DNA from: Escherichia coli
GTDB taxonomy: Bacteria > Pseudomonadota > Gammaproteobacteria > Enterobacterales > Enterobacteriaceae
Direction: 5' to 3' (one strand)
Assembly: GCF_017348835.2 (NCBI RefSeq)
Contig: NZ_CP071375.1
DNA length: 64,000 nt
The position numbers and the translations under genes are program-made. The notes under the pieces are model-generated. The model saw only the letters and a program-made list of their open reading frames with translations. It did no database searches and had not been told where the DNA came from. Of this stretch, positions 1,188-30,374 are shown in pieces (position 1 is the first letter of the stretch; every line of letters begins with the position of its first letter).

Positions 1188-1254
1188 AGCAAGTCCTGCA
1201 TAAATAATTTATGTGAATAGTGGTAGGGTAGAATTAATAATTTAAATATATGAT

Positions 1255-1941: not shown

Positions 1942-1992
1942 AATTAACGATCCTGAATTGTAGTGAGGAGGTGTGAACAGAGACTAGAGTAG

Positions 1993-2025
1993 AACCTATA
2001 AACCTGTCAAACAGGTTTATAGGTT
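1993..2025. promoter_or_regulatory. Perfect 15-bp inverted repeat (AACCTATAAACCTGT-caa-ACAGGTTTATAGGTT) in the divergent promoter region; candidate operator
   Basis: Read directly from sequence; contains a TGT-N3-ACA core of the kind bound by GntR/FadR-family regulators; lies between the divergent RraA-like/MFS genes and the GntR gene. Confidence 0.4.
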
Positions 2026-2239
2026 GAAGAGTGTAAACGATCGCACTCTGCGAGCCTCTTCACAATTTCAGCTATGGTTTACTGCGATCGCTTTTCAACC
2101 GGATGCGTCCTATCGCTGCTACGCCTTTTTCGGTAACATACGAACCAAAGGTAGGAGGGATTATCTGTAACGCTATGATTTTTAAGTTTTAGATAAGATA
2201 TGTTGCGGCTGAAACAGGTAATATCTGCTCGGTAAATTG

Positions 2240-2965: not shown

Positions 2966-2989
2966 TTAAGCGATTCAGCACCTTATCTC

Positions 2990-3013
2990 AGGCACCTTCG
3001 GGTGCCTTTTTTG
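2990..3013 (+). terminator. Rho-independent terminator after the GntR gene
   Basis: Hairpin AGGCACC-ttcg-GGTGCCT followed by TTTTTT. Confidence 0.5.
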
Positions 3014-6332: not shown

Positions 6333-10224
<3,892 letters not shown>

Positions 10225-15467: not shown

Positions 15468-17099
15468 GTGTTAACGCTGCTTCACCTGCTTTCTGCCGTC
15501 GCCCTGCTGGTCTGGGGGACTCATATTGTTCGAACCGGCGTAATGCGCGTCTTCGGCGCGCGTCTGCGTACTGTCCTTAGCCGGAGCGTCGAAAAAAAGC
15601 CGCTCGCCTTTTGCGCGGGGATCGGCGTTACCGCACTGGTACAGAGCAGTAATGCCACCACCATGCTGGTGACCTCGTTCGTCGCTCAGGATCTGGTAGC
15701 CCTCGCACCGGCTCTGGTGATTGTGCTGGGGGCAGATGTCGGGACGGCGCTAATGGCGCGTATTCTCACCTTCGACTTATCCTGGCTGTCACCGTTACTT
15801 ATTTTTATCGGCGTGATTTTTTTCCTCGGACGCAAACAGTCACGCGCCGGGCAACTGGGCCGCGTCGGTATTGGTCTTGGGCTGATTTTACTGGCGCTGG
15901 AGTTGATTGTGCAGGCCGTAACGCCGATCACCCAGGCAAACGGCGTTCAGGTGATCTTTGCCTCGCTGACCGGCGATATTCTGCTGGATGCGCTGATTGG
16001 CGCGATGTTCGCCATTATCAGCTACTCCAGCCTTGCTGCTGTACTGCTGACCGCGACTCTGACCGCCGCAGGCATTATCTCCTTCCCCGTGGCACTCTGT
16101 CTGGTGATTGGTGCTAACCTCGGTTCCGGCCTGCTGGCGATGCTCAACAACAGTGCCGCCAATGCCGCAGCCCGCCGTGTCGCGCTGGGTAGTCTGCTGT
16201 TTAAGCTGGTGGGTAGCCTGATTATCCTGCCGTTTGTCCATTTGCTGGCAGAGACAATGGGGAAGCTGTCATTGCCAAAAGCGGAACTGGTTATCTATTT
16301 CCACGTCTTCTACAACCTTGTACGTTGCCTGGTCATGCTGCCATTTGTTGACCCGATGGCACGGTTTTGCAAAACGATTATTCGCGATGAACCGGAACTG
16401 GATACCCAGCTACGGCCTAAACATCTGGATGTCAGCGCGCTGGATACACCCACGCTTGCTCTGGCGAACGCCGCGCGCGAAACCCTGCGCATTGGCGACG
16501 CCATGGAACAGATGATGGAAGGGCTGAATAAAGTGATGCACGGCGAGCCAAGGCAGGAGAAAGAGCTGCGTAAGCTGGCAGATGATATCAACGTTCTCTA
16601 TACCGCCATTAAGCTGTATCTGGCGCGGATGCCAAAAGAGGAACTGGCAGAAGAAGAGTCGCGCCGCTGGGCGGAGATCATCGAAATGTCGCTCAACCTT
16701 GAACAGGCCTCCGATATCGTCGAGCGCATGGGGAGCGAAATTGCCGACAAATCGCTGGCTGCAAGGCGAGCATTTTCGCTTGATGGCTTGAAGGAACTGG
16801 ATGCGCTCTATGAGCAATTGCTCAGTAATTTAAAGCTGGCAATGTCGGTGTTCTTCTCTGGTGATGTTACCAGCGCCCGTCGTTTGCGCCGCAGCAAGCA
16901 TCGCTTTCGCATTCTTAATCGCCGCTATTCCCACGCCCACGTCGATCGCCTGCATCAGCAAAACGTGCAGAGCATTGAAACCAGTTCGCTACATTTAGGC
17001 TTACTGGGAGATATGCAGCGTCTGAACTCGCTGTTTTGTTCGGTGGCTTACAGTGTGCTGGAACAGCCGGATGAAGATGAAGGACGGGACGAGTATTAA
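15468..17099 (+). CDS. yjbB: Na+/phosphate cotransporter family (PhoU-domain) inner membrane protein
   Basis: 543-aa ORF; multi-pass hydrophobic N-terminal half, soluble helical C-terminal half; position after metH. Confidence 0.85.
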   Translation: MLTLLHLLSAVALLVWGTHIVRTGVMRVFGARLRTVLSRSVEKKPLAFCAGIGVTALVQSSNATTMLVTSFVAQDLVALAPALVIVLGADVGTALMARILTFDLSWLSPLLIFIGVIFFLGRKQSRAGQLGRVGIGLGLILLALELIVQAVTPITQANGVQVIFASLTGDILLDALIGAMFAIISYSSLAAVLLTATLTAAGIISFPVALCLVIGANLGSGLLAMLNNSAANAAARRVALGSLLFKLVGSLIILPFVHLLAETMGKLSLPKAELVIYFHVFYNLVRCLVMLPFVDPMARFCKTIIRDEPELDTQLRPKHLDVSALDTPTLALANAARETLRIGDAMEQMMEGLNKVMHGEPRQEKELRKLADDINVLYTAIKLYLARMPKEELAEEESRRWAEIIEMSLNLEQASDIVERMGSEIADKSLAARRAFSLDGLKELDALYEQLLSNLKLAMSVFFSGDVTSARRLRRSKHRFRILNRRYSHAHVDRLHQQNVQSIETSSLHLGLLGDMQRLNSLFCSVAYSVLEQPDEDEGRDEY

Positions 17100-17100
17100 T

Positions 17101-17190
17101 ACCGTGACCCTGTAGGCCTGATAAGACGCGTAAAGCGTCGCATCAGGCACTATGAACAAGATGCCGGATCATGCATCCGGCAATTCACTT
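17101..17190. repeat. REP element(s) between yjbB and pepE
   Basis: GCCTGATAAGACGCG...CGCATCAGGC and GCCGGATCATGCATCCGGCA palindromic units. Confidence 0.7.
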
Positions 17191-17878
17191 AAAAACGGTG
17201 ACCCGCTTCCAGCGGAACCGCTTCTTCACCGGCCTTAAACACATAGGTGGTGTTCGGGCCACCCAGCGTTGCGTGACCTTTACTCACTGTGATCCAGTTA
17301 CCTTCCGGTAGACCAATAATTGTGAGTTCTGGCGCGACGACCAGCAGTTCGCGAATACGCTGTTCACGGGTTTCACCTTTATGGCCTTCCGGCAGCGCGT
17401 TGGTGAAGTGCGGGTTGATTTGCAACGGGAACAGATTCAGCGCATCGAAACCTTGTGGATCGACAATCGGCATATCGTTGGTGGTACGAATGGTTGGGCA
17501 AGCAAGGTTAGCGCCAGCGCTCCAGCCAATATACAGCGCGCCACGTTTAACCACGTCAGTAATTGGTGCCAGCAGCCCGCGCTCGCGGCACTGTTTCAGC
17601 AACTGGAAAGTATTACCGCCGCCGACAATCACGATCTCAGCATTTTCAATCGCGGCAACGGGATCGACAACGCTATGAATACCGGTGACAGAAACACCCA
17701 GCGGAGCAAGAACCGCAGCCGTTTTCGCTGTGTAATCATCCCAGGTCTGCGTTACGCCAGCGAAAGGGATAAACACCGCTGAGCGGCGACCCTGCAACTG
17801 TTCAGCAATTAGCGGCAGTGCATGTTCCAGCCAGGCTTTACCCGGCAGCGTCGAGTTACTCAATAAAAGCAGTTCCAT
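17189..17878 (-). CDS. pepE: Peptidase E (alpha-aspartyl dipeptidase)
   Basis: 229-aa [31 protein letters not shown]... recognised as PepE. Confidence 0.93.
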
Positions 17879-17989
17879 TACTTCTCCGGTTAGTAAGAAA
17901 TCACGGAAGGAATGCTACCACTGCGAATTTAACCACTTACTGACATGGCTCACGATGTCACGTATTGCACAGGCGCTGAGACTGATGAC

Positions 17990-18120
17990 AAACACAGCAT
18001 TGCCTGATGCGCTACGCTTACCTGACCTACCAGATAACTGCAATATATTGAATTTTCAAAATTATGTAGACCGAATAAGGCTTCATTCCGCATCCGGCAT
18101 AAACAATGTGCACTTTGCCA
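17990..18120. repeat. Degenerate REP-like units between pepE and sorE
   Basis: GCCTGATGCGCTACGCTTA and GCTTCATTCCGCATCCGGCAT motifs resembling REP consensus. Confidence 0.5.
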
Positions 18121-18258
18121 CCAATTTGAGCGCCCCTTAAGGCGCTGATATTTTTTATGCTTCTCGTGCAAATTGTGCTGCTTCAGCAATCAGCAGCTCA
18201 TCCGGTCGCGAAGTTGCTGGTGCGACCAGCCAGCGACATGCAGAGTTGAGTAACGCGA

Positions 18259-19488
18259 TTAATCATGGGAAATTGCCTCTGCATGAGTGAGCAGATATTG
18301 CTCCGCCTCACCGGACCAGATCCCCTGATGACGCGCCAGAATCGCCGCCAGTGCTTGATCCTGAATCTGCGTGAGTGACGTCAGCGGCAGGTATTTCTCG
18401 GTATACACCAGCTTTTTGCCGCCGCCGACGGCAGGCAATTCAAGCGTGGTTTCGCCCGCGGCATTCAGCCCAAGAATATGTGTTACCACTTTTGCGGCCT
18501 GCACTTTTTTCTCTTCGATCAGTTTGACCGCCGCGCGCATGTCGTCGGTATTGCCGCCTGACGTGCCCACGTAGTGGGTAAATGCATAATGCACATCGTA
18601 GAAATTAATTGGCGCGCTGAAATGTTTATCCTGCGGTCCGGCGAAGAAATTCAGGCAACCATCTGTCGCCAGCAAGGAAGAGGCGAGAGTCACCAGTCCT
18701 TCATTAGGCACAAAGACGAAAATATCATCGAAGCCGTGACCGCCACTCAGCGCCATTAGCGTATCAAATGCTGCATCGGTGGCATTGAGATAATGAATCA
18801 GTGTTTGCGGTTCTGATGGATAGTGCTTGCGCGCATAACTCAATTTATCGTTGTCGGTATCGGTAATGACGAGCAGCGACGGGTTAACGGGTCCATGTAG
18901 CGCATAATCAATCGCCAACAGTCCCATTGGTCCGGTGCCGCCGAGGATCAGCGTGCGCCCTTGCGGGCGAATCCCCATCGTGTGGTTATAACTACCTTCC
19001 TGAAGATGATAGTTGGCGTTGAACGCGCCAATCACGCAGGAAAGTGGTTCAACCAGCGAGCCTTCAAAATAGGTTTCGCCGTCGTATGCCAGCAGGCAAT
19101 CTTGTTCCATGACCTCGTTGGGAATAACCACATGCGTGGCTTCGCCGCCCACCCACGGGAAGGAGTAGCCGGGGCAGTCCGGGCGATCCGGCAATTGCAG
19201 GTTGGCCTGAATCACATAACGCTGACCCGGCTGGAATTTGTGCTGCCACTTTTTACCCACGGCCAGAATATCGCCGCAAAACTCGTGGCCGATGATGATT
19301 GGGTTGGTCGCCACATCGTCGGGTACTTTTTTATGGTTTTCACCCAGGTTGGCCTCTTTCCAGGAAGAGAGGCACAGGCTGTCAGTGACCACCGTCGCGA
19401 GGATTTCATCCTCCTGCATTTCAGGAAGGTCAAAGGTTTCCAGGCGTAAATCACGTTTACCATAAAGACGCAGAGCTGTTGTTTTCAT
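18259..19488 (-). CDS. sorE: L-sorbose-1-phosphate reductase (Zn-dependent MDR-family dehydrogenase)
   Basis: ORF 18259..19500 trimmed to MKTTALRLYGKRDLRLE...; medium-chain dehydrogenase fold; last gene of a sor-type operon. Confidence 0.8.
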   Translation of the reverse strand: MKTTALRLYGKRDLRLETFDLPEMQEDEILATVVTDSLCLSSWKEANLGENHKKVPDDVATNPIIIGHEFCGDILAVGKKWQHKFQPGQRYVIQANLQLPDRPDCPGYSFPWVGGEATHVVIPNEVMEQDCLLAYDGETYFEGSLVEPLSCVIGAFNANYHLQEGSYNHTMGIRPQGRTLILGGTGPMGLLAIDYALHGPVNPSLLVITDTDNDKLSYARKHYPSEPQTLIHYLNATDAAFDTLMALSGGHGFDDIFVFVPNEGLVTLASSLLATDGCLNFFAGPQDKHFSAPINFYDVHYAFTHYVGTSGGNTDDMRAAVKLIEEKKVQAAKVVTHILGLNAAGETTLELPAVGGGKKLVYTEKYLPLTSLTQIQDQALAAILARHQGIWSGEAEQYLLTHAEAISHD

Positions 19489-19539
19489 AAACCACCTCAT
19501 GTTGAGCGATGGCCCCGGCAGTCGTGCCGGGGCGAAGAA

Positions 19540-20364
19540 TCAGGACAGGAAGCCCAGCGCATTGCCGATAATCCCTAAGCCAAACAGGGCGAAAATCAGC
19601 CATACCGGGTTAATTTTTTTGTTGAGCAGACGAACCATTAGTAGCGTCAGACCGAGCGCCAGCAAACCAGGGCAAAGTTGGTCGAGAATGTTCTGCACGG
19701 TCATGATGACGGTGGAGCCATCGGCGGCATGCGTTTGTGAAACCACCAACGGTACGTTGATTGACGTCCATTTGGTGACCAGCACGCCCATCACAAACAG
19801 TCCGAGAATCGACGCGCCTTCGGTGAGTTTTTGCAGCAAATTACCGCCCATATCGCTGACGATATTCACCCCTTTGCGAAAGCCGAGCTGGAGGCCATAC
19901 CACTTCATCGCCAGACGCACCGCGTTGAAAATAAAGAAGAACAGCAGCGGGCCGAGAATGTTGCCCGAAAGTGCCAGAGATGCGCCGAGCGCGGCGGTAA
20001 TCGGGCGCAGCGTTCCCCAGACCAGTGGATCGCCAACCCCTGCCAATGGTCCCATCAGACCGACTTTGATGCCGTTAATGGTGCCGTCATCAATTTCCGC
20101 GCCGTTGGCCCGCGCCTCTTCCATGGCGGCAGTGACGCCGATGACCGGGCCACATACGGCTGGCGTGGTATTGAAGAACACCAGGTGTCGCCTGAGCGCC
20201 GCAACCTGATCCTCTTTTAATGGGTAAAGTCGCTTGATGGCGGGGATCATGTCGTAGCAAAAGCCCAGCCCGTGAATACGTTCAAAGTTAAAGGACGCCT
20301 GTTGCAGGTTGGAGCGCAGAAACATGCTCACCAGATCGCTGCGTGTAATTTTTCTCTGTTCCAT
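19540..20364 (-). CDS. sorM: PTS sorbose/mannose-family EIID component
   Basis: ORF 19540..20394; EIID-like membrane protein; likely start MEQRKITRSDL... giving about 274 aa. Confidence 0.8.
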   Translation of the reverse strand: MEQRKITRSDLVSMFLRSNLQQASFNFERIHGLGFCYDMIPAIKRLYPLKEDQVAALRRHLVFFNTTPAVCGPVIGVTAAMEEARANGAEIDDGTINGIKVGLMGPLAGVGDPLVWGTLRPITAALGASLALSGNILGPLLFFFIFNAVRLAMKWYGLQLGFRKGVNIVSDMGGNLLQKLTEGASILGLFVMGVLVTKWTSINVPLVVSQTHAADGSTVIMTVQNILDQLCPGLLALGLTLLMVRLLNKKINPVWLIFALFGLGIIGNALGFLS

Positions 20365-20374
20365 GATGGCTCCG

Positions 20375-21172
20375 TTAATCGTCAAGTTGGTCAAGGGCGG
20401 TGGAAGCGGGGGCCTGGAGCTGAGGTTCAGCTTTACGCCACTGTGGATTTAACTGGATGTAGACCAGGGCCATGATCACGCCGACGCCACCGAACGCCAG
20501 CAGACTGAGATCGAGGTAGCCACCTGCGAGGAAACCGAGGAAAAAGAAAGGCATCAAATATTTCACGCCCATCATACGTAGCACCATGGCGTAACCGACC
20601 ACCACGATAAAACCGCCAGCAATCTGTAGTCCTCGGGTCACAAATTCGGGAATGGCGTTTAACATATTGCTCACCATATCGGCGCTGACGAACAGCGAGA
20701 CAATCAGTGCCGGAACAGCAACGCGCAGCGCCTGCACGCCAAGCGCGGAGACATGCAGAATATCGAGAGTGCGAAACCGTGCTTCTTCCGCTGCTTTATC
20801 CGCCGCGTGCTGGAACACTACGGTGATGGTACGTGCAAACACCGTCAGCACCTGGCCTGCCGCAGCCACAGGCAACGCGATGGCGATTCCGGTGGCGATG
20901 CTTTGCTGACCAACGATAACCAGAATGGCGGAGATTATGCTGGCGAGTGCAGAATCCGGAGATTGCGCCGCGCCGACGTTCATCCAGCCGAGAGCTATCA
21001 ATTCCAGCGTACCACCGAGTATTATTCCGGTTTTTAAATCACCGAGAATTAAACCAATCACCGTACAGGCAATTAACGGGCGATGAGTCTGGAATTCATC
21101 CAGCACGCTGCCCATTCCGGCAATACAGGAAAAAAGAAATATAGCAATAATTTGTAGGGTACTTATTTCCAT
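20375..21172 (-). CDS. sorA: PTS sorbose/mannose-family EIIC component
   Basis: 265-aa hydrophobic ORF with EIIC-like sequence (MEISTLQIIAIFLFSCIAGMGSVLDEFQ...). Confidence 0.8.
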   Translation of the reverse strand: MEISTLQIIAIFLFSCIAGMGSVLDEFQTHRPLIACTVIGLILGDLKTGIILGGTLELIALGWMNVGAAQSPDSALASIISAILVIVGQQSIATGIAIALPVAAAGQVLTVFARTITVVFQHAADKAAEEARFRTLDILHVSALGVQALRVAVPALIVSLFVSADMVSNMLNAIPEFVTRGLQIAGGFIVVVGYAMVLRMMGVKYLMPFFFLGFLAGGYLDLSLLAFGGVGVIMALVYIQLNPQWRKAEPQLQAPASTALDQLDD

Positions 21173-21237
21173 GATTTGTCACCTTTTAAGTGTCGTCATC
21201 CCTGCCTGTTAAAGCATATGTACACAGGCGCTATTAT

Positions 21238-21732
21238 TTAATTTGCGATTAACTGTTCGTTTATTTTGTCGATAATATTGATTGAGGGATCTGACGCTAC
21301 GACGCGTAAATCCAGTATGACGCCAAGATTATTTAACTCATGAAATGCGTTAATATCATCATCATCTAATGAAACCGCTTTGGTTAACTGTTTTTTACCG
21401 GGCCGCCAGGCCATGCCGCCAATATTCAGGGTGCCTATTTTTACCCCCTGGCGAACCATCGCTAAGGCATCCTGTGGGCGAGTGAAAAGATAAAAAACGG
21501 TTTCGTCCTGATATTGCGGGTTGTGATAAACCGCGACGGCTTTTTCAATATTGACCACGTTAACCTTCATTCCCGGTGGCGCAGCCTGACGCAATAATGT
21601 CCGGCGAACTTCATCGTTATAAACTTCGTCATTGCAGATAATAATGCGCTGGGCGTTAGCCACTTTCGACCAGACGGTAGTGACCTGACCGTGGATCAGG
21701 CGGTCATCAATGCGGGCGAGCGTAATGTTCAT
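21238..21732 (-). CDS. sorB: PTS sorbose/mannose-family EIIB component
   Basis: 164-aa ORF MNITLARIDDRLIHGQVTTVW... (conserved IIB His motif). Confidence 0.85.
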   Translation of the reverse strand: MNITLARIDDRLIHGQVTTVWSKVANAQRIIICNDEVYNDEVRRTLLRQAAPPGMKVNVVNIEKAVAVYHNPQYQDETVFYLFTRPQDALAMVRQGVKIGTLNIGGMAWRPGKKQLTKAVSLDDDDINAFHELNNLGVILDLRVVASDPSINIIDKINEQLIAN

Positions 21733-22139
21733 CAGAAATCCTCCTCTGCCGTTGCCACCTGTCTCCAGACGACGCAGGATTGCTTTGCGATTTGCGTCAG
21801 GTGTTCACACAGTTCATCAACATTCATGCTGTCCTGGTTATCAACCAGTTCGAGCGCCAGCGGCAGAGAAAGGCCGCTGATTACCCGCAAACGAGGATTG
21901 CGCATCGCAAGCATCGCTGCCGCATTCCACGGGCTGCCGCACTGTAAATCCACGGCAATCAGCCACTCATCTTGATTGTGAATGCTTACTAACTTTTCCA
22001 GCTTTACCACAATGTCTCCGGCGTTTTCACCGGGCACAAATTCAACGGCTTCAACATTGGCGTTGCCGTAAACCATCTGAACCGATTCCAGCATGGCGCA
22101 AGCTAATTTGCCGTGGGCACAAAAAATGGCGTTGACCAT
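21732..22139 (-). CDS. sorF: PTS sorbose/mannose-family EIIA component
   Basis: 135-aa ORF MVNAIFCAHGKLA...; start of sorB overlaps its stop (ATGA), indicating translational coupling. Confidence 0.85.
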   Translation of the reverse strand: MVNAIFCAHGKLACAMLESVQMVYGNANVEAVEFVPGENAGDIVVKLEKLVSIHNQDEWLIAVDLQCGSPWNAAAMLAMRNPRLRVISGLSLPLALELVDNQDSMNVDELCEHLTQIAKQSCVVWRQVATAEEDF

Positions 22140-22148
22140 AAAGCCTCC

Positions 22149-22955
22149 TTATCCGCGCGTTTTGCCGCCCGCAATGTTAGTGGTTACTCCGGTGATGTAG
22201 CTGGCGCGTTCAGACAACAGATAACAAACAAAATCAGCGACTTCTGCTAATCTACCGGCGCGCCCAATAGGAATGGCGTTTTTGGTATAGCCTTCACGCA
22301 GCTGCTCGACGGTGATATTGCGCGTCCACGCCAGCGCTTCTTCATATTCCGGCGTGCGCAGTCCTGTTTTTTCCAGAATCCCCGGCGCGATACCGACCAC
22401 ACGGATACCGTGTTTACCCAATTCTTTCGACCAGGAGCGCGTGAAGCTATTGAGCGCGGCTTTGGTAGCGGCGTAACAGCTTTGTCCTTCTGAGCCTTCC
22501 AGCCCACTTTCTGAGGAAACATTCACAATCACGCCATCATGTTGTTTGACCATCTGTCGCGCCACCGCCTGCGACATCAGAAAAACACCTTTCTGGTTGA
22601 TATTGACCATTTTTTCGAATGCAGCTTCGTTGAGTTCATACTGCCCGGCAGGCGCTTTCTCATCGACCAGCAGACGCGGGAAATTGACCCCGGCGTTATT
22701 GACCAGACCGTCGATGCGACCAAAACGCTGGATAATTTCCGCTACCGTATGATTTACCTCTTTGGCGCTGGAAATATCGGTCGGCCAAAACTGATAGCCT
22801 TTATGACCTTCATATTGTCCATCGCCACCGTGAATATCGACCATCTGTACATTCGCGCCTTGTGCTAATAATTCCTCTACAATCGCCAGACCAATACCGG
22901 ATGCGCCGCCGGTGACGATAATGATTTTATCCTGCAAATTTAACCACGTTTGCAT
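22149..22955 (-). CDS. sorD: Sorbitol-6-phosphate 2-dehydrogenase (short-chain dehydrogenase/reductase)
   Basis: 268-aa ORF with TGGASGIG Rossmann motif and SDR catalytic YxxxK (YAATKAAL). Confidence 0.8.
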   Translation of the reverse strand: MQTWLNLQDKIIIVTGGASGIGLAIVEELLAQGANVQMVDIHGGDGQYEGHKGYQFWPTDISSAKEVNHTVAEIIQRFGRIDGLVNNAGVNFPRLLVDEKAPAGQYELNEAAFEKMVNINQKGVFLMSQAVARQMVKQHDGVIVNVSSESGLEGSEGQSCYAATKAALNSFTRSWSKELGKHGIRVVGIAPGILEKTGLRTPEYEEALAWTRNITVEQLREGYTKNAIPIGRAGRLAEVADFVCYLLSERASYITGVTTNIAGGKTRG

Positions 22956-23024
22956 AACAGACTCCTGATTTTAGATAATAGGGACCCGCCGTAATTTTTA
23001 TTACGATAAACATCGGGAAGATTT

Positions 23025-23972
23025 TTATTTCAGTAATAGTTCAGCTGTGCTGCTATTCGTTACCAGACAATTAATATATTTTCCACGCAGTGCACCAATA
23101 ATTCCGCTGTATTTTTCTTCACTCATGGCAATGCCAATGGAATATCGTGCCTGCTTTAATTTATTCATTTCGATAGAGAGTGTTTTTTCGCTCATATTCG
23201 TTTCAACCATTGCGCCGTGAATATCAAAAAAGCGCGAGCAAATATCGCCAGCAACCTGGCGGGCATTCAGGTCGTCACTCTCTTCACCACCATAAAACGC
23301 ATGCCAGTTAGCGCCGTCGCGAATGGCCGGTGAGCCAATTCCCACCAGGGCGACATCCAGATTATCCCAGTAGGCAGAGATGGTTTTAAAGTGCTGAGAC
23401 TGCATGATCCCATTACGAATTAAGGGGTTATCCAGCAGAGCCGGAAAATCCGCGAGATGCGATTCCCCTTTCAGCTTCGCTGCCGCGCTGTAGGTTAATG
23501 TGTTTACGTGATAGCGGCTTTCGAGTTTACCGGACGGTCCGCCAATAATTGGCACGCAGATTAACTGCCGCGATTGCCCCGCTTGCGGCAAGTTTTCAAC
23601 CAGTGCGCTCACCGCGCGACCCCAGGAAAAACCGACAATATCGCCAGGCTCCAGCAAGCGATCCAGCAGTTGCGCGCCGTGTAACCCCATCATCGCCAGT
23701 TGAGTCTCTTCATCCTCATCATTTCCCGACACCACCACAACGTCTTTCAGGCCAAACTTTTGCTTCAGTTGCTGCTCGAGCCAGAGATTTTCGTTGTAGT
23801 CATAGTTGATGGCGATGGTGACAATTCCCTGATCGCGGCCTCGTTTAAGCAAGCGGCTGATGGTGGTGCGGTAAATACCCAGTTCGCGCGCGATTTGCGC
23901 CTGCGTCATATCCTGTTCGTAATAGAGTTGGGCAATCTTCACAATCAAACGGATATCGTCACTGTTTTCCAT
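23025..23972 (-). CDS. sorC: SorC-family transcriptional regulator of the sorbose operon
   Basis: ORF 23025..24056 trimmed to MENSDDIRLIVKIAQLYYEQDMTQAQIARELG... (HTH plus sugar-binding domain, about 315 aa). Confidence 0.8.
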   Translation of the reverse strand: MENSDDIRLIVKIAQLYYEQDMTQAQIARELGIYRTTISRLLKRGRDQGIVTIAINYDYNENLWLEQQLKQKFGLKDVVVVSGNDEDEETQLAMMGLHGAQLLDRLLEPGDIVGFSWGRAVSALVENLPQAGQSRQLICVPIIGGPSGKLESRYHVNTLTYSAAAKLKGESHLADFPALLDNPLIRNGIMQSQHFKTISAYWDNLDVALVGIGSPAIRDGANWHAFYGGEESDDLNARQVAGDICSRFFDIHGAMVETNMSEKTLSIEMNKLKQARYSIGIAMSEEKYSGIIGALRGKYINCLVTNSSTAELLLK

Positions 23973-23988
23973 TGCCGCCTCCTGGTTC

Positions 23989-24111
23989 TGCACATTTGTG
24001 CAAATACGCTTTCTCACCGCTTGATCTGATATAACCCCATCATGATGGCCTTTCAAAGCGATTTTTCACTCTTTGCATGGGGAGAAATAGCGCTTTCTCT
24101 TGCACATTTGT
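23989..24111. promoter_or_regulatory. sor promoter region with repeated TGCACATTTGT motif (one copy forms palindrome TGCACATTTGTGCA)
   Basis: Motif occurs at 23989-24002 and 24101-24111, just upstream of the sorC start; candidate SorC operator sites. Confidence 0.35.
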
Positions 24112-24319
24112 TTCTCTGCGCAGTAGTCATCAGCACAGGTGTGCAGCGATTCGTAATATGTTGATTATCCTTATTTTGCCAGGCAAATTTGCATTGTACT
24201 TCCGGAGACACTTTTGTGATAAAAGGCGTGGCAGATCACATTTAATTTCGACGTTGCCGCATAACTCTGTTTTTCCCTGCTAAGAGGTACGGTATATTCC
24301 GCGTTTTACAGGAGAATTT

Positions 24320-25192
24320 ATGCTGCCCGACTCATCAGTCCGTTTAAATAAATACATCAGCGAAAGCGGAATTTGCTCACGCCGCGAAGCGGATCGCTAT
24401 ATCGAGCAAGGCAATGTGTTCCTTAATGGCAAGCGAGCCACCATTGGCGATCAGGTGAAACCCGGCGACGTTGTGAAAGTAAACGGTCAGTTGATTGAGC
24501 CTCGGGAAGCCGAAGATTTGGTACTTATCGCCTTGAACAAGCCCGTCGGTATTGTCAGCACCACCGAAGATGGCGAGCGCGATAACATTGTCGATTTCGT
24601 TAACCACAGCAAACGCGTGTTCCCGATTGGTCGTCTGGATAAAGATTCCCAGGGGCTGATTTTCCTCACCAACCACGGTGATCTGGTGAATAAGATCCTG
24701 CGTGCTGGCAATGATCATGAAAAAGAGTATTTGGTAACGGTCGATAAACCGATTACCGATGAATTTATTCGTGGTATGGGGGCGGGAGTGCCGATCCTCG
24801 GGACGGTGACGAAAAAGTGCAAAGTCAAAAAAGAAGCACCGTTTGTCTTCCGCATTACCCTGGTGCAGGGGTTGAACCGTCAGATCCGTCGCATGTGCGA
24901 GCACTTTGGTTACGAAGTGAAAAAGCTGGAACGTACGCGCATTATGAACGTCAGCTTAAGCGGCATTCCGCTGGGTGAGTGGCGCGATTTAACTGACGAT
25001 GAGTTAATCGACCTCTTTAAGCTCATCGAAAATTCCTCTTCCGAGGCAAAACCTAAAGCGAAGGCCAAACCGAAAACAGCGGGCATCAAACGTCCAGTCG
25101 TTAAGATGGAAAAAACGGCGGAAAAAGGCGGTCGCCCGGCGTCCAACGGTAAGCGTTTTACCTCGCCGGGGCGAAAAAAGAAGGGGCGCTAA
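24320..25192 (+). CDS. rluF: 23S rRNA pseudouridine synthase F
   Basis: 290-aa ORF with S4 domain and RsuA-family catalytic region ([22 protein letters not shown]). Confidence 0.9.
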
Positions 25193-25465
25193 TCAGCGCC
25201 TGCCGCGCGTCGACGTATTTGCTGACCAGCTAAATGACGCTTCAGGATCCGGTTTATAAGCCTGCTTTTTCTTTAACTGGCGGGCTTTTTTCGCTTCAGC
25301 CTCACGCTCGACCATTAATTTATCGATGTACTCTTTCTTAATGCTGTTGGTTTCGGAGTTGGTCAGTACGCGACCATGCGCAATCCGCGCCCGATCCAGC
25401 AGTGTTTTAAGTTCACGTTGCTCGCGTTCAGTCATCTCTTTTTGAGTAATACGGGGGAGTGCCAT
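25193..25465 (-). CDS. yjbD: Small conserved protein YjbD (DUF3811-like)
   Basis: 90-aa ORF MALPRITQKEMTEREQRELKTLLDRARIAHGRVL... at the expected position. Confidence 0.8.
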   Translation of the reverse strand: MALPRITQKEMTEREQRELKTLLDRARIAHGRVLTNSETNSIKKEYIDKLMVEREAEAKKARQLKKKQAYKPDPEASFSWSANTSTRGRR

Positions 25466-25993
25466 GATGGTGCCCTCAGTGAGCCAGAGAGTTCAGTGTA
25501 CGGGAATTCGTTTGCGAGCAGAACTGATAATATTCCTTTGTTCTCTTCTTAAATATTTATCTTTCTTGATAATTGACGATAAATACAGATACAAATTTAG
25601 CGAAAAAATCTCCCCCTACAAACAACAATGATTTATTAAATCTTTATTTTTCATGTAATTAAAATTTTTTATCACTTCTGGCACGCTTCTCGCAATAACA
25701 CTTTTGCGTTGATACTGAATTACAAAGGGGGTTAAACCCCGTCGGCACACCAGGAACGGCCAGGCTGTTTTCCGGGCGTGTTCCGTCAGCCTTTGACGCC
25801 AATTACGGGTTCGATTCCCACATTCATTCCTGAAATGAATACTGGTTGTAACTTATTAAATAAAAAATGAGGGATTGCGCAGTCTGCGGTCCCCGATAAC
25901 GTCACCGATAAAGATGCCGGGTAACAGGCAAAAGGGAATTCCCCTGTCGCTTCGTGTCTGCTTCCGCGACGGCTATTAAGCAAGGAATAGATA

Positions 25994-27121
25994 ATGATTA
26001 AAAAAATAAGCGTAAGAAAAGATCAGCTGGCATTACTCTCCAGAAACGGCGATTACTACAAAGTGCTGCATGCAGGCGAGCATATTTTACCCTGGTTAAA
26101 TACCCCGGAAGTGTTGCTGATTACGCTGGATGGTAGCGAAGTTCCCGACGTGCTTGCGGATTATTTGCGCCGCTTTCAGCCTGATTGGGTGGAGAAATAT
26201 TGCCTGGTGGCAGACTTGTCGGAGACTGAAGCCGGGGTGTTGTATATGGACGGTATTTTGTTGGAGATCCTGCCGCCATCAACGCGTCGTTTGTACTGGC
26301 GTGTAGAGGATGATTTGACGCTGGTGCGGATGAATACGCAGCAAGTCCCGGTACAAACGGAGGTGATGAATGCGGTATTACAGCCACGGCGCAAAGGAGT
26401 TGTTAAAGGCCGCGATGCGATACTGACGGTGCAGGTTCCGGCCTGGCATGTAGGCGTGCTGAAAATCGATGGTGAAACGCAGGCGCTGTTACCGCCGGGG
26501 CTGACTGCGTACTGGAAAATAAATCATCTGGTTGAAGCTGAAGTTGTCGACACCCGCTTGCAGGTACTGGAAGTCAGCGGGCAAGAAATCTTAACGAAAG
26601 ATAAGGTCAATCTGCGGATTAATCTCGCCGCTAACTGGCGCTATAGCGATGTGTTGCTGGCATTTAGTCAGCTAACGAAGCCGATTGATCATTTGTATCG
26701 GGAATTACAATTTGCCCTGCGTGAAGCGGTAGGTACGCGCACACTGGATGAACTGCTGGAAGATAAACAGGTCATTGATGACGTTGTTAGCGAGCAGGTG
26801 AAACTACGCATGAAGCCGTTCGGTATGGAGATCGCTTCGTTAGGAGTAAAAGATATCGTCCTGCCTGGCGATATGAAAAATATTCTTGCGCAACTGGTAG
26901 AGGCGGAGAAATCCGCGCAGGCCAATGTGATTCGCCGACGTGAAGAAACGGCAGCGACGCGCTCGTTACTGAACACCGCCAAAGTCATGGAGAACAATCC
27001 GGTAGCGTTGCGTTTAAAAGAGCTGGAAACGCTGGAGAGAGTGGCTGAGCGGATTGATAACATCTCTGTATTTGGCGGTCTGGATCAGGTTCTGCATGGG
27101 TTGGTTAATATCAAAGGGTGA
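25994..27121 (+). CDS. Soluble SPFH/band-7 (stomatin/prohibitin-like) domain protein with a novel ~170-aa N-terminal domain
   Basis: 375-aa ORF; C-terminal half has SPFH-like features (VSGQEILTKDKVNLRINLAANWRY...AEKSAQANVIRRREETAATRSL); no evident N-terminal transmembrane segment; AAGGA Shine-Dalgarno before the ATG. Confidence 0.7.
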   Translation: MIKKISVRKDQLALLSRNGDYYKVLHAGEHILPWLNTPEVLLITLDGSEVPDVLADYLRRFQPDWVEKYCLVADLSETEAGVLYMDGILLEILPPSTRRLYWRVEDDLTLVRMNTQQVPVQTEVMNAVLQPRRKGVVKGRDAILTVQVPAWHVGVLKIDGETQALLPPGLTAYWKINHLVEAEVVDTRLQVLEVSGQEILTKDKVNLRINLAANWRYSDVLLAFSQLTKPIDHLYRELQFALREAVGTRTLDELLEDKQVIDDVVSEQVKLRMKPFGMEIASLGVKDIVLPGDMKNILAQLVEAEKSAQANVIRRREETAATRSLLNTAKVMENNPVALRLKELETLERVAERIDNISVFGGLDQVLHGLVNIKG

Positions 27122-27918
27122 GTAACATGCCATTAAATGGAGTCAGTGCTGCGATGCGCGAAAGGGTATCGCAGCAGTTAAAAGAAATTGAACGTCGCTA
27201 TGGCGTGAAAGTGCTGTACGCCTGCGAATCGGGGAGTCGCGGCTGGGGATTTGCTTCGCCCGACAGCGATTACGATGTGCGGTTTTTGTATGTCCATCCG
27301 CTGGAATGGTATCTGCGGGTAGAGGCACCACGCGATGTTATCGAACTGCCCATCGACGACGAGTTAGATGTTTCCGGTTGGGAATGGCGCAAAGCGCTGG
27401 GATTGCTGAAAGGTGCGAATCCCACGCTAATTGAATGGCTGGATTCACCGGTGGTCTATCAGCAAGATGAAGAGACGATAACGGCGCTTAAGGCAATGGT
27501 CCCAACGTGGTTTTCTCCGTTGCGTGCGCGCTGGCATTACTATTCGATGGCGCAGAAAAACTTCCGCGGATATTTGCAGGGCGATGAAGTTCGACTGAAA
27601 AAATACTTTTACGTGCTGCGTCCGTTGCTGGCCGTGCGTTGGGTTGAAGCGGGAAAAGGCGTACCGCCAATGCGTTTTTCCGAATTGCTGGCGGGAAGTG
27701 AGTTGGATGCGGCCTTACGCGCAGAAATAGATGAATTACTGGAACGTAAACAGCGTGCGGGTGAAGCGGAATATGGCCCACGCCGTCCATTGCTACATGC
27801 GTTTATCCATGCGGAACTGGCGCGTGGGGAAATTCCGCCTGTGTTACCGGATAGTAGAGAAGGGGACGTTAAGAAACTGGATAGCTTACTGTACCAGACG
27901 GTAATGCGCCGGGCGTGA
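27118..27918 (+). CDS. Pol-beta-superfamily nucleotidyltransferase
   Basis: 266-aa ORF; ESGSRGWGFASPDSDYDVRF fits the hG[GS]x9-13DxD nucleotidyltransferase signature; GTG start at 27118 overlaps the upstream stop (GTGA), alternative ATG at 27127 with AGGGTG Shine-Dalgarno. Confidence 0.7.
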   Translation: MSNMPLNGVSAAMRERVSQQLKEIERRYGVKVLYACESGSRGWGFASPDSDYDVRFLYVHPLEWYLRVEAPRDVIELPIDDELDVSGWEWRKALGLLKGANPTLIEWLDSPVVYQQDEETITALKAMVPTWFSPLRARWHYYSMAQKNFRGYLQGDEVRLKKYFYVLRPLLAVRWVEAGKGVPPMRFSELLAGSELDAALRAEIDELLERKQRAGEAEYGPRRPLLHAFIHAELARGEIPPVLPDSREGDVKKLDSLLYQTVMRRA

Positions 27919-27933
27919 TGCCCGGCGTTATTT
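27906..27933 (+). terminator. Intrinsic terminator after the nucleotidyltransferase gene
   Basis: Hairpin CGCCGGGC-gtgat-GCCCGGCG overlapping the stop codon, followed by TTATTT. Confidence 0.5.
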
Positions 27934-27950
27934 CAGGTCATCAGCTTTTA

Positions 27951-28880
27951 TTATTCTTGTGCACTTCCGCTGATTTCATTTTGTATATGCGTTGCAATAT
28001 CGCAATTGGTTGCCGCTTGTGAACTAAATATCATCTTCTCACGCGAATACACCGCAAACTTATCTGCCAGGTTTGAAGCAAACACCTTGCTGGCATTTTC
28101 TGCTAGCAAATCGGTAACGATATCATGGTGATTTTTATCCACTTTGCGGGCGATATTTCCCGCCTCTTTGTCCTTATTATACCCTTCGTTGGTGCTTTCC
28201 CAGCTTAATGCCGCTGAGGTGGTTTTTATCATGACTTCTGTTCGGTAGCCTGCATCTTTGAGTTTTTTTAATGTTTGTAGCGGCGTAGCGGCATTACGAA
28301 ATGTTCCTTCGACAACAATATTGAGTTTATTGGCTATGGCCCTCTCTATTGCACGTTCGACCGTTTCGCCGGAAAATTTTGCCGTATGGGTAACAAAATC
28401 GTCGCCATAAGTTTGATATATATAATTAAAATCAGGGTGTAGAAATCTGAAATCATCACCATTAATAATCATTATATTATTCTTTGTTTCCCTTTTTGCT
28501 AATTCGATTAGGGCGGATTTTCCGGCTCCTGGTTGTCCACCTAAAACAAAACCAATGGGACTCTGCTGGGATGTGACGTCATGGTTTGTCAGACGCTGCC
28601 AAATAGAATCAAAAGACGCTTTATTTTCTGAATGCGCAGTATTATTAAATTCACGCTGATACTTTTTTCTGACCTGCTGGAGGCGTAACTTTCCCTGTGT
28701 AAAATCAACAAGTTCTGCTGGAGTGGAATAAAGATTGTCGCGATAGCTGACTAATTGTGATAGCTCATCGTCTGAGTCCTGAACTTGTGAGGAAAAACAA
28801 CTGTCGACGATATTTGATAAAAACGCGATGCACTGACTGGTGCCGTTTAAAAGTGCATCTTTTTCCATTAAAGTAGCCAT
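27951..28880 (-). CDS. ezeT: Single-chain zeta-toxin family protein (EzeT-like UDP-GlcNAc kinase toxin with N-terminal cis-antitoxin domain)
   Basis: ORF 27951..28886; Walker A GGQPGAGKS placed ~110 residues from the N-terminus (long N-terminal extension); zeta-toxin-like C-terminal region; likely ATG at 28880 preceded by AGGAG; AT-rich. Confidence 0.7.
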   Translation of the reverse strand: MATLMEKDALLNGTSQCIAFLSNIVDSCFSSQVQDSDDELSQLVSYRDNLYSTPAELVDFTQGKLRLQQVRKKYQREFNNTAHSENKASFDSIWQRLTNHDVTSQQSPIGFVLGGQPGAGKSALIELAKRETKNNIMIINGDDFRFLHPDFNYIYQTYGDDFVTHTAKFSGETVERAIERAIANKLNIVVEGTFRNAATPLQTLKKLKDAGYRTEVMIKTTSAALSWESTNEGYNKDKEAGNIARKVDKNHHDIVTDLLAENASKVFASNLADKFAVYSREKMIFSSQAATNCDIATHIQNEISGSAQE

Positions 28881-29024
28881 TAACACTCCTGTTAAATAAT
28901 ATTTTTCGGTGATTATAATACTGTTCTACAGGAGTGATTTTGCATTTCAGATATTATTTAATCTATGTTTGCAGTGAGGATGGCGTATAACAATTGGTGA
29001 GCGTTATACGCCAGTAGGAAAATA

Positions 29025-30374
29025 TTACTCAAACAAATTACTATGCAGTTTTTGCACCACCTGCTCGGCATCTTCGCCGGGCACCAGGAAGCACAGGTTA
29101 TGGCTGGATGCGCCGTAACAAATCATGCGAATGTTGAACGGTTCCAGTACGCCGAATACCTCTTTGCCAACGCCGCAGGCTTTTGACAGGTCATTGCCAA
29201 TCAACGCGACCAGCGCCAGACCTTCTTCTACTTCCACCCGGCACAGTGCGGAAAGCTCCATCAGCAGAGATTGCGTCAGCAACGTATCGCCAGTGGAGGT
29301 TGAACCGGTGGTATCAAGGGTTAATGCCACGCTCACTTCTGACGTGGTGATTAAGTCTACCGAAATATTATGCCGCGCGAGGATGCCGAAAACTTCCGCG
29401 AGGAAGCCGCGAGAATGCAGCATATTCAGGCTGTGCAAAGTGAGCAGAGTCTGATTGCGACGAAGCGCCAGCGCGCGGAACAGCGGCGGATTTTCAGTTT
29501 TATTGCATACCAGCGTACCACCTGCGCGTGGGTCTTTGCTGGAGCCGACAAAGACCGGGATATCGCTGCGTACTGCGGGTAGCAATGTTGCCGGATGCAG
29601 TACTTTTGCACCAAAAGTTGCCATCTCTGCTGCTTCGGCAAACGCGATTTCATCAATGCGTTTTGCTGCGGAAACCACGCGTGGATCGGTGGTGTAGATG
29701 CCCGGGACGTCGGTCCAGATATCAACACGAGATGCGTGTAAAGCCTCCGCCAGCAAGGCTGCCGTATAATCGCTGCCTCCACGGCCAAGCGTCGTTGTAC
29801 GACCTTTATTTTCGCTACCGATAAATCCCTGGGTGATCACTAAACCTTCATTGAGACGTGGGAGCAGCTGCAGCGCGGCCAGTTCCGCCAGCGCGGCTAT
29901 ATCTGGCTCTGCACGACCAAATCGGTCGTTGGTACGCATCACTTTACGTACATCAAACCACTGTGCCTGAACATCGCGTTCGCGCAGGATCTCAACAAAC
30001 AGCAGGGTCGACATCAGCTCGCCGTGGCTGACCAGCTCATCTGTCAGCGCCGGAGACGTTGCCAGCGCCGCCGCTTCTGCCAGAACAGTAATGTTCTCCA
30101 GCAGACGTTCAATCTCTTCACGGATAACGTTCGGGTAACGCAGACGTTCCAGAATGGCAAACTGGATGTTGCGAATAGCGTCGAGTTTTTCGAATCGCTC
30201 GCCAGGTTCCAGCCCTTCCGCTAAAGCGACCAGCAGATTAGTGATACCAGCAGAAGCCGAGAGGACAACTAAACGCACGTTGGCATCAGAAAGCACAATA
30301 TCAGCGCTGCGGTTCATGGCGTCAAAATCAGCTACGCTGGTACCGCCAAATTTGGAGACAACAATTTCAGACAT
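29025..30374 (-). CDS. lysC: Lysine-sensitive aspartokinase III
   Basis: 449-aa ORF MSEIVVSKFGGTSVADFDAMNRSADIVLSDANVRLVVLSASAGITN... recognised as LysC. Confidence 0.95.
   Translation of the reverse strand: MSEIVVSKFGGTSVADFDAMNRSADIVLSDANVRLVVLSASAGITNLLVALAEGLEPGERFEKLDAIRNIQFAILERLRYPNVIREEIERLLENITVLAEAAALATSPALTDELVSHGELMSTLLFVEILRERDVQAQWFDVRKVMRTNDRFGRAEPDIAALAELAALQLLPRLNEGLVITQGFIGSENKGRTTTLGRGGSDYTAALLAEALHASRVDIWTDVPGIYTTDPRVVSAAKRIDEIAFAEAAEMATFGAKVLHPATLLPAVRSDIPVFVGSSKDPRAGGTLVCNKTENPPLFRALALRRNQTLLTLHSLNMLHSRGFLAEVFGILARHNISVDLITTSEVSVALTLDTTGSTSTGDTLLTQSLLMELSALCRVEVEEGLALVALIGNDLSKACGVGKEVFGVLEPFNIRMICYGASSHNLCFLVPGEDAEQVVQKLHSNLFE

What the first reader, a model, noticed from the sequence alone, without database searches (positions are those of the whole stretch)
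18259..24111. Complete L-sorbose PTS operon (sorCDFBAME) inserted between pepE and rluF
Seven minus-strand genes match the sor operon organisation described for Klebsiella and sorbose-positive E. coli: SorC regulator, SDR dehydrogenase, EIIA, EIIB, EIIC, EIID, and a Zn-dependent reductase. K-12 lacks these genes at this position as far as I recall. Several junctions are tightly spaced or overlapping (sorF/sorB ATGA), and degenerate REP-like units lie at the pepE-proximal border.
Basis: partly seen in the sequence, partly recalled or inferred. Interest (0 to 1): 0.4.

Follow-up and report, generated by a model that had tools for sequence, protein, structure and literature searches.

The report
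Known E. coli L-sorbose utilisation operon
This is the well-known seven-gene operon that lets about half of all E. coli strains (but not K-12) take up and ferment the sugar L-sorbose; it is intact here, sits at its usual chromosomal site, and is ordinary.

Summary
Seven intact minus-strand genes at 18259-23972 are sorC-sorD-sorF-sorB-sorA-sorM-sorE, between pepE and rluF. The window is E. coli PE164 (one mismatch in 58 kb compared).

SorC is about 88% identical, over its full length, to the Klebsiella pneumoniae regulator (PDB 2w48). SorB is about 85% identical to K. pneumoniae IIB-Sor (1nrz) and scores far below that against mannose IIB. The orthologous CFT073 fragment, amplified with primers that match the window's borders, lets DH5alpha grow on L-sorbose (PMC2831201). 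Knock-outs and a knock-in confirm function (PMC12817954).

K-12 lacks the genes. Window 17969-24284 (6316 bp) is replaced there by an unrelated 86-bp filler. Of 5426 complete E. coli genomes, 2865 carry the sor allele and 2557 the filler allele.

"Inserted" is the wrong polarity. The order yjbD-rluF-sorCDFBAME-pepE-yjbB is conserved in other Escherichia species, Citrobacter, Klebsiella, Raoultella and Enterobacter, and there are no mobile-element marks. The K-12 state is therefore a loss.

One addition: relatives carry an eighth gene, a shikimate-dehydrogenase-like sdhL whose start overlaps the sorE stop. The window keeps only a scar of it from a ~700-bp deletion (18155-18266).

Already known; low interest.

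The parts
23025..23972 (-). sorC, SorC-family regulator (HTH plus sugar-binding domain), first gene of the operon
   Evidence: 315 aa, aligned 1-315 to K. pneumoniae SorC (PDB 2w48) at 612 bits. Pfam Sugar-bind PF04198 plus HTH. PGAP start in PE164.
22149..22955 (-). sorD, SDR-type D-glucitol(sorbitol)-6-phosphate dehydrogenase
   Evidence: NCBIfam NF004817 sorbitol-6-phosphate dehydrogenase subunit, 501 bits against a cut-off of 304. Pfam adh_short.
21732..22139 (-). sorF, EIIA-Sor
   Evidence: TIGR00824 EIIA-man 147.6 bits; PF03610. The stop codon overlaps the sorB ATG by 1 nt, TGATG.
21238..21732 (-). sorB, EIIB-Sor
   Evidence: 305 bits to K. pneumoniae sorbose-specific IIB (PDB 1nrz) against 171 bits to mannose IIB. 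TIGR00854.
20375..21172 (-). sorA, EIIC-Sor membrane subunit
   Evidence: TIGR00822 EII-Sor 423.7 bits; PF03609.
19540..20364 (-). sorM, EIID-Sor membrane subunit
   Evidence: TIGR00828 472 bits; PF03613. PGAP start is the ATG at 20364.
18259..19488 (-). sorE, L-sorbose-1-phosphate reductase (MDR/zinc-ADH superfamily)
   Evidence: PGAP names it sorE. Pfam ADH_N is above cut-off; ADH_zinc_N is just below. No NCBIfam model reaches cut-off.
19512..19533 (-). GC-rich stem-loop directly after the sorM stop, inside the operon
   Evidence: GCCCCGGCA-cgac-TGCCGGGGC. A stem at this place is kept in all enterobacterial sor loci examined, with variable loops. Function not known.
18155..18266 (-). Scar of an eighth gene, sdhL (HI0607-type shikimate-dehydrogenase-like): first 18 codons and the last ~56 nt, joined out of frame at 18211/18210
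   Evidence: Alignment with E. whittamii and a cryptic-clade Escherichia shows a ~702-bp gap in the window. The intact relative matches PDB 1npy at 361 bits and NF009202 at 462 bits. The ATG at 18266-18264 overlaps the sorE stop (ATGATTAA).
18129..18146 (.). Short GC hairpin just downstream of the sdhL stop
   Evidence: AGCGCC-CCTTAA-GGCGCT. Flagged as terminator-like only on the + strand; on the operon strand no T-run follows it.
18001..18099 (.). Decayed REP pair (BIME-like): Z2-like unit 18001-18030, 35-nt spacer, inverted Y-like unit 18066-18099
   Evidence: Homologous to intact canonical REP palindromes in E. whittamii at the same place. Not matched by the REP consensus at 3 mismatches or fewer.
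17969..24284 (.). Whole segment that differs from K-12 (6316 bp here, 86 unrelated bp in K-12)
   Evidence: Junction alignments. The filler matches nothing in the window or in 82 loci.
23989..24002 (-). Perfect palindrome TGCACA-AA-TGTGCA between the conserved upstream block and the sorC ribosome-binding site; candidate SorC operator
   Evidence: Invariant (one substitution in one sequence) in 14 enterobacterial sequences. It contains one of the only two CAAATGTGCA copies in 64 kb.
24101..24110 (-). Second CAAATGTGCA copy, 112 bp upstream of the first; candidate second operator half
24022..24036 (-). Invariant block GGTTATATCAGATCA, possible -10 region or regulator site of the sorC promoter
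   Evidence: Conserved in all 14 aligned sequences. Not called by the consensus promoter scan.
24208..24243 (-). Conserved block aaATGTGATC...CACAAAAGTGT with a CRP-like half-site
   Evidence: TGTGATC and CACAAAAGTGT are invariant across 14 sequences. The CRP reading is inference from the consensus.

Best explanation
This is the chromosomal L-sorbose utilisation operon sorCDFBAME of E. coli, intact and in its ancestral enterobacterial position between rluF and pepE. Mechanism, taken from the characterised Klebsiella and E. coli systems and inferred here by orthology: the mannose-family PTS made of SorF (IIA), SorB (IIB), SorA (IIC) and SorM (IID) takes up L-sorbose and phosphorylates it to L-sorbose-1-phosphate. 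SorE reduces this to D-glucitol-6-phosphate, and SorD oxidises that to fructose-6-phosphate, which enters glycolysis. SorC, the first gene, represses the operon without sorbose and activates it with sorbose. It probably acts through the two conserved CAAATGTGCA elements upstream of sorC (inferred). K-12 and most phylogroup A/B1 strains lack the operon because the 6.3-kb segment was lost and replaced by an 86-bp filler. In the window's lineage, as in most sor+ E. coli, an eighth downstream gene (sdhL) was separately destroyed by an internal deletion of about 700 bp.
For: Gene content, order and families. Orthology to the K. pneumoniae proteins: SorC 612 bits over the full length; SorB 305 bits against 171 bits for mannose IIB. 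All seven proteins are 74-96% identical to those of the Klebsiella and Raoultella loci. The window is identical to PE164, where PGAP annotates seven intact CDSs including sorE. Function of the orthologous locus: the CFT073 c4981-c4987 cloning primers match window about 18229-18258 and 24293-24319, and the clone lets DH5alpha grow on L-sorbose (PMC2831201). In ST131, a sorE deletion abolishes sorbose use; a knock-in gives ST10 growth on sorbose; the seven genes are the most strongly sorbose-induced genes (PMC12817954). Absence from K-12 and exact junctions. Species-wide dimorphism of 2865 sor against 2557 filler genomes out of 5426. Ancestral position: yjbD-rluF-sorCDFBAME-(sdhL)-pepE-yjbB in E. 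whittamii, Escherichia sp. MOD1-EC7003, Pseudocitrobacter, Citrobacter, Klebsiella, Raoultella and Enterobacter; in E. albertii the contig is cut, but sorA-sorM-sorE-sdhL-pepE-yjbB is present. No border repeats, no tRNA, GC 51.0% against 50.1% for the window. sdhL scar.
Against: The phenotype of this strain was not observed. Enzyme specificities of SorE and SorD are assigned by orthology only, and no curated HMM reaches its cut-off for SorE. The promoter and operators are inferred from conservation, not mapped; the consensus promoter scan found no more sites than shuffled sequence does. The origin of the K-12 86-bp filler is unexplained, so 'simple deletion' is incomplete as a description of the loss. 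K-12 rluF is unusually diverged from the window's allele: 95.4% against about 97.8% for pepE and yjbB.
Confidence: 0.96

Rival explanations
1. The segment is a horizontally acquired metabolic island that inserted between pepE and rluF in the lineage of this strain.
For: It is absent from K-12 and from 47% of complete E. coli genomes. There are local GC dips to about 41-42% around sorB and the sorD/sorC junction. A REP pair lies at one border.
Against: The same slot and orientation are found in other Escherichia species and at least six other enterobacterial genera, with divergence that tracks the flanking genes. There is no integrase, IS, tRNA or border repeat above chance. Overall GC equals that of the window. 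The sor-minus allele is nearly invariant: 2525 of 2557 copies are at least 99% identical, as expected for one recent loss event. Published distribution: more than 86% of genomes in every phylogroup except A and B1 (PMC12817954).
Confidence: 0.04
2. The genes encode a mannose-family PTS with a different sugar specificity (mannose, fructose or an amino sugar) rather than L-sorbose.
For: The NCBIfam and Pfam models for IIA-IID are generic 'mannose/fructose/sorbose' subfamily models. PGAP leaves five of the seven genes with generic names.
Against: SorB scores 305 bits to K. pneumoniae IIB-Sor against 171 for ManX IIB and 142 for the fructose (levan) IIB; the galactosamine and GalNAc equivalogs fall below their cut-offs. 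The PTS genes are linked to sorD and sorE, which are needed only for the sorbose-1-P route. The orthologous fragment alone confers growth on L-sorbose (PMC2831201).
Confidence: 0.02
3. The operon is present but phenotypically silent in this strain, through a regulatory defect or loss of the sdhL partner.
For: sdhL is destroyed here. Sorbose phenotypes vary between pathotypes (PMC2831201).
Against: ST131 and CFT073 carry the same sdhL-less arrangement and use sorbose; B2 strain S88 has the same 381-bp sorE-pepE spacer. All seven ORFs are full length, and the upstream conserved blocks are intact.
Confidence: 0.05

Closest known systems
Klebsiella pneumoniae sor operon sorCDFBAME (the Lengeler laboratory's work; SorC structure PDB 2w48, IIB-Sor structure PDB 1nrz)
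   Same: Same seven genes in the same order. SorC is about 88% and SorB about 85% identical. Related Klebsiella species have the operon in the same rluF/pepE position.
   Different: About 78% nucleotide identity overall according to PMC2831201. Klebsiella-group loci keep the eighth gene sdhL and have a longer, more structured sorM-sorE spacer of 106-187 nt.
E. coli CFT073 c4981-c4987 and the ST131/ST648 sor operon (PMC2831201, PMC12817954)
   Same: It is the same locus. The B2 allele (S88) is 97% identical in DNA over the full 6.4 kb, the cloning primers match the window's borders, and the B2 allele carries the same sdhL scar.
   Different: Only allelic differences. ST648, CE10 and 177 genomes in total keep an intact sdhL.
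E. coli manXYZ mannose PTS
   Same: Same PTS family (IIA, IIB, IIC, IID) and the same Pfam domains.
   Different: IIA and IIB are separate proteins here. Scores to mannose components are much lower. The sor genes are linked to two dehydrogenase/reductase genes and a SorC regulator.
E. coli srl/gut D-glucitol operon (SrlD sorbitol-6-P dehydrogenase)
   Same: SorD catalyses the same reaction as SrlD and hits the sorbitol-6-phosphate dehydrogenase model. The two pathways converge on glucitol-6-P.
   Different: A different PTS family (Gut), a different regulator and a different locus.

Membership tests
sor operon (sorCDFBAME) of Enterobacteriaceae | Seven co-oriented genes in the order regulator, glucitol-6-P dehydrogenase, IIA, IIB, IIC, IID, sorbose-1-P reductase | tested here: met
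   Spacings of -1 to 69 nt.
sor operon (sorCDFBAME) of Enterobacteriaceae | Orthology to the experimentally characterised K. pneumoniae Sor proteins | tested here: met
   Tested directly for SorC (2w48, 612 bits over the full length) and SorB (1nrz, 305 bits). All seven are 74-96% identical to Klebsiella and Raoultella loci. CFT073 against K. pneumoniae is 82-97% similar (PMC2831201).
sor operon (sorCDFBAME) of Enterobacteriaceae | Chromosomal position next to pepE, in the iclR-metH region | tested here: met
   iclR-metH-yjbB-pepE-sor-rluF. The same slot is used in other genera.
sor operon (sorCDFBAME) of Enterobacteriaceae | Confers growth on or fermentation of L-sorbose, inducible by L-sorbose through SorC | not testable with these tools
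   Shown for the orthologous locus in CFT073, ST131 and ST648 (PMC2831201, PMC12817954). Not shown for this strain.
Mannose-family PTS enzyme II (IIA/IIB/IIC/IID) | All four components present with full-length domain matches and the phosphorylatable histidines | tested here: met
   TIGR00824, TIGR00854, TIGR00822 and TIGR00828 are all above cut-off. SorB carries RLIHGQV and SorF carries CAHGKLA near the N-terminus, read directly from the translations.
SorC/DeoR-type sugar-phosphate regulators | N-terminal HTH plus C-terminal sugar-binding domain (PF04198) | tested here: met
   Full-length match to 2w48.
Mobile genomic island | Integrase or transposase, tRNA or att target, flanking direct repeats, deviant composition | tested here: not met
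   No such genes. No tRNA. The longest border repeat, 7-9 nt, equals the shuffle expectation. GC is 51.0% against 50.1%.
REP/BIME extragenic palindromes | Two inverted REP palindromes around a short spacer | tested here: inconclusive
   The architecture and homology to intact REPs in E. whittamii are clear. Both units here are decayed, and the Y-like unit fails the consensus at 3 mismatches or fewer.
SdhL (HI0607-type shikimate-dehydrogenase-like) gene downstream of sorE | Intact ORF of about 270 codons | tested here: not met
   Only a 112-nt scar with a 22-codon ORF remains. The gene is intact in 27 related loci and 177 E. coli genomes.

The most novel reading that the evidence does not exclude
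The ancestral enterobacterial sor unit may be an eight-gene operon. Its last gene, sdhL (HI0607-type shikimate-dehydrogenase-like, physiological substrate unknown), is translationally coupled to sorE through an ATGATTAA overlap kept in about 26 loci. It is reported to be differentially expressed with L-sorbose in ST648. The window would then show the scar of its loss, which most E. coli share. If sdhL acts on a sorbose-related ketose or polyol, this linkage would give the first functional handle on the SdhL subfamily. It would also recast what PMC12817954 called an 'ST648-specific insertion' as an ancestral gene lost elsewhere.
Probability: 0.3. Interest if true: 0.35.

Novelty: already known. 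Interest (0 to 1): 0.08.

Why it matters
It matters little as a discovery. The operon, its pathway, its regulator structure, its map position and its distribution across tens of thousands of E. coli genomes are published, and sorbose fermentation is a classical strain-typing trait. The useful outcomes are housekeeping ones. The locus is correctly identified and intact. The presence/absence polymorphism should be read as loss in the K-12 (A/B1) lineage rather than gain here. The 'non-coding' stretch between sorE and pepE is the scar of a lost eighth gene followed by a decayed REP pair.

Tried and rejected
- Rfam at permissive threshold over 17000-26000 found nothing in the operon or its borders. 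The only hits were a sub-threshold naRNA4/REP325-like match at 17115-17182 and a spurious RNase P fragment.
- I looked for the origin of the K-12 86-bp filler by local alignment to the whole window and by blastn-short against all 82 loci then held. Only chance matches of 12-16 nt came up.
- I looked for target-site duplications or terminal inverted repeats at 17968/17969 and 24284/24285. The longest matches, 7-9 nt, equal the shuffle expectation.
- I considered that sdhL might be a 5-ketofructose reductase making L-sorbose, because PDB 7cok appears among the hits. I rejected this as unsupported: ordinary AroE enzymes score better, the shikimate-dehydrogenase-type 5-KF reductase tested in PMC7954740 yields D-fructose rather than L-sorbose, and a second shikimate-dehydrogenase homologue there was inactive on 5-KF.
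- I considered that the K-12 haplotype was imported from another species, because K-12 rluF is only 95.4% identical. K-12 rluF is not closer to any outgroup examined, so this is left open.
- NCBIfam has no model that names SorE.
- The consensus promoter and terminator scan gave no more sites than shuffled sequence does.
- The 1984 Sprenger and Lengeler paper (PMC215126) is not held.


Full report
**What is there.** ORF listing shows seven consecutive minus-strand ORFs between pepE (17189-17878, minus) and rluF (24320-25192, plus). The window is the reverse complement of E. coli PE164 (pig isolate, NZ_CP114128.1). There are no differences in 18,050 bases on one side and one in 40,001 on the other. 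PGAP annotates the seven genes there as intact CDSs:

| Gene | Window coordinates |
|---|---|
| sorE | 18259-19488 |
| IID (sorM) | 19540-20364 |
| IIC (sorA) | 20375-21172 |
| IIB (sorB) | 21238-21732 |
| IIA (sorF) | 21732-22139 |
| SDR oxidoreductase (sorD) | 22149-22955 |
| sugar-binding regulator (sorC) | 23025-23972 |

NCBIfam and Pfam agree with these assignments:
- The four PTS components reach the mannose/fructose/sorbose subfamily cut-offs.
- The SDR hits the sorbitol-6-phosphate dehydrogenase model (501 bits, cut-off 304).
- The regulator has an HTH plus PF04198.
- SorE is a member of the medium-chain (zinc-ADH-type) dehydrogenase superfamily, with only weak Pfam scores and no curated HMM.

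Gaps along the operon are 69, 9, -1, 65, 10 and 51 nt.

**Is it the sorbose system rather than another mannose-family PTS?**
- SorC aligns over residues 1-315 with the K. pneumoniae protein of PDB 2w48 (612 bits, about 88% identity). This also fixes the ATG at 23972 as the start.
- SorB scores 305 bits to the K. pneumoniae sorbose-specific IIB of 1nrz, against 171 bits to mannose IIB and 142 to the fructose (levan) IIB.
- The experimental link is direct. PMC2831201 amplified CFT073 c4981-c4987 with primers whose sequences match window about 18229-18258 and 24293-24319. [quoted passage not shown]
- PMC12817954 showed that the seven genes are the most strongly sorbose-induced genes in ST131 and ST648. 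A sorE deletion abolishes utilisation, and knocking the operon into ST10 confers growth.
- The B2 allele (S88) is 97% identical to the window over the whole segment.

The pathway is taken from those systems: PTS uptake to L-sorbose-1-P, SorE reduction to D-glucitol-6-P, then SorD oxidation to fructose-6-P. SorC acts as repressor without sorbose and activator with it.

**Comparison with K-12.** K-12 has a 211-bp pepE-rluF spacer.
- The first 90 bp (window 17879-17968) and the last 35 bp (24285-24319) are shared.
- Between them the window has 6316 bp (17969-24284), and K-12 has 86 bp that resemble nothing in the window or in any fetched locus.
- Across 5426 complete E. coli genomes the locus is cleanly dimorphic. 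2865 carry the sor segment (all but two at 95% identity or more), and 2557 carry the K-12 junction, of which 2525 are at least 99% identical.
- This agrees with the published figure of more than 86% presence in every phylogroup except A (9.6%) and B1 (12.1%).

**Insertion or loss?** A scan of one genome per species with SorE returned 80 loci. tblastn with the window's eleven proteins gave the following:
- The order yjbD-rluF-sorC-D-F-B-A-M-E-...-pepE-yjbB is found in Escherichia whittamii, Escherichia sp. MOD1-EC7003, a roughly 91%-identical Escherichia labelled E. coli, Pseudocitrobacter, six or more Citrobacter, five Klebsiella, Raoultella and Enterobacter.
- In E. albertii the contig is cut, but sorA-sorM-sorE-sdhL-pepE-yjbB is present.
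- In Cedecea and two unnamed relatives the same order holds but pepE itself is missing.
- Sor protein identities fall off in step with the flanking genes.

The segment has no integrase, IS or tRNA, no border repeats above chance, and the same GC content as the window. The parsimonious reading is that the operon is ancestral at this site and that the K-12 state is a single, fairly recent loss. "Inserted" is therefore only a positional description.

Two loose ends remain. The origin of the 86-bp filler is unknown. K-12 rluF is more diverged from the sor+ alleles (95.0-95.4%) than those alleles are from each other (96.7-97.8%), yet it is not closer to any outgroup.

**The pepE-proximal border.** The 380 bp between sorE and pepE is not just REP debris.
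- In E. whittamii, Raoultella and about 25 other loci, a 270-codon gene starts 4 nt before the end of sorE, so that ATGATTAA overlaps the sorE stop.
- That gene matches the H. influenzae HI0607 shikimate-dehydrogenase-like protein (PDB 1npy, 361 bits) and NCBIfam NF009202.
- Alignment shows that the window keeps its first 18 codons and its last ~56 nt, joined out of frame at 18211/18210 with about 702 bp missing. This leaves a 22-codon ORF.
- Only 177 complete E. coli genomes (for example CE10) keep the gene intact.
- PMC12817954 noted this sdhL as unique to ST648 among the lineages studied and differentially expressed with sorbose only there, and described the flanking differences as ST-specific insertions. 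The comparative data here point instead to an ancestral gene lost in most E. coli.
- Downstream come a short GC hairpin (18129-18146) and a REP pair (18001-18030 and 18066-18099).

**Control region (inference).** Aligning the sorC-rluF spacer of 14 species shows islands of invariance in otherwise free-drifting sequence:
- A perfect palindrome TGCACA-AA-TGTGCA lies just upstream of the sorC ribosome-binding site (23989-24002).
- A second CAAATGTGCA lies 112 bp further up (24101-24110). These are the only two copies of that 10-mer in 64 kb.
- The block GGTTATATCAGATCA is at 24022-24036.
- An ATGTGATC...CACAAAAGTGT block with a CRP-like half-site is at 24208-24243.

SorC-family regulators bind as tetramers to two-part operators (PMC11229326), which fits the two elements. 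Nothing here maps a promoter, and the consensus scan is at background level. The K-12 deletion ends just upstream of the conserved rluF -10-like TATATT, so the sequence upstream of that element differs between the sor+ and sor-minus alleles.

**Verdict.** The feature is a textbook, experimentally verified accessory operon. The corrections are loss rather than insertion, the sdhL scar, and the TGATG junction.

Noticed in passing
window 25994-29950 (approx.): A three-gene block lies between yjbD and lysC, where K-12 and S88 have only a 252-bp spacer: a slipin-family protein, a DNA-polymerase-beta-superfamily nucleotidyltransferase and a zeta-toxin-family protein. CE10 also has the slipin gene next to yjbD. 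It could be a small toxin/defence island.
   Followed up: no
window 19489-19539: A GC-rich stem-loop (GCCCCGGCA...TGCCGGGGC, 19512-19533) sits directly after the sorM stop. A stem is kept at this place in every enterobacterial sor locus examined, with varying loops. In the Klebsiella group the spacer grows to 106-187 nt with much more predicted structure. PMC12817954 reports different induction timing for sorC and sorE probes.
   Followed up: partly
window 25192/25193: The rluF and yjbD stop codons abut here (0-bp spacer), as they do in S88 and CE10. K-12 has a 132-bp insert between them.
   Followed up: partly
window 24320-25192 (rluF): rluF is only 95.4% identical in DNA between the window and K-12, against 97.8-97.9% for pepE and yjbB. 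K-12 rluF is also the most distant allele from every outgroup tested. The divergence is linked to the sor-minus junction.
   Followed up: partly
window 21732-22139 (sorF): SorF (IIA) is by far the fastest-diverging Sor protein: 74-92% identity where its neighbours are 84-99%, and 91% even against E. whittamii. This matches the four sorF clusters reported in PMC12817954.
   Followed up: no
window 17115-17182: A REP325/naRNA4-like element lies between yjbB and pepE (46 bits, below Rfam's gathering score of 59.5).
   Followed up: no
window ~7990-10180, ~1-3000 and ~47770-49350: Other differences from the K-12 layout appear in the PE164 annotation. The iclR-aceK gene (arpA position) is annotated as T3SS effector EspL4. 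A GntR regulator/RraA-family/MFS transporter block lies upstream of aceB. A SopA-family protein gene lies between ubiC and malM.
   Followed up: no
L086 (E. coli CE10) 8828-8951: In CE10 the sdhL-pepE spacer is only 122 bp, so the REP pair present in the window and in E. whittamii is missing there. The REP pair is itself a variable feature of this junction.
   Followed up: no
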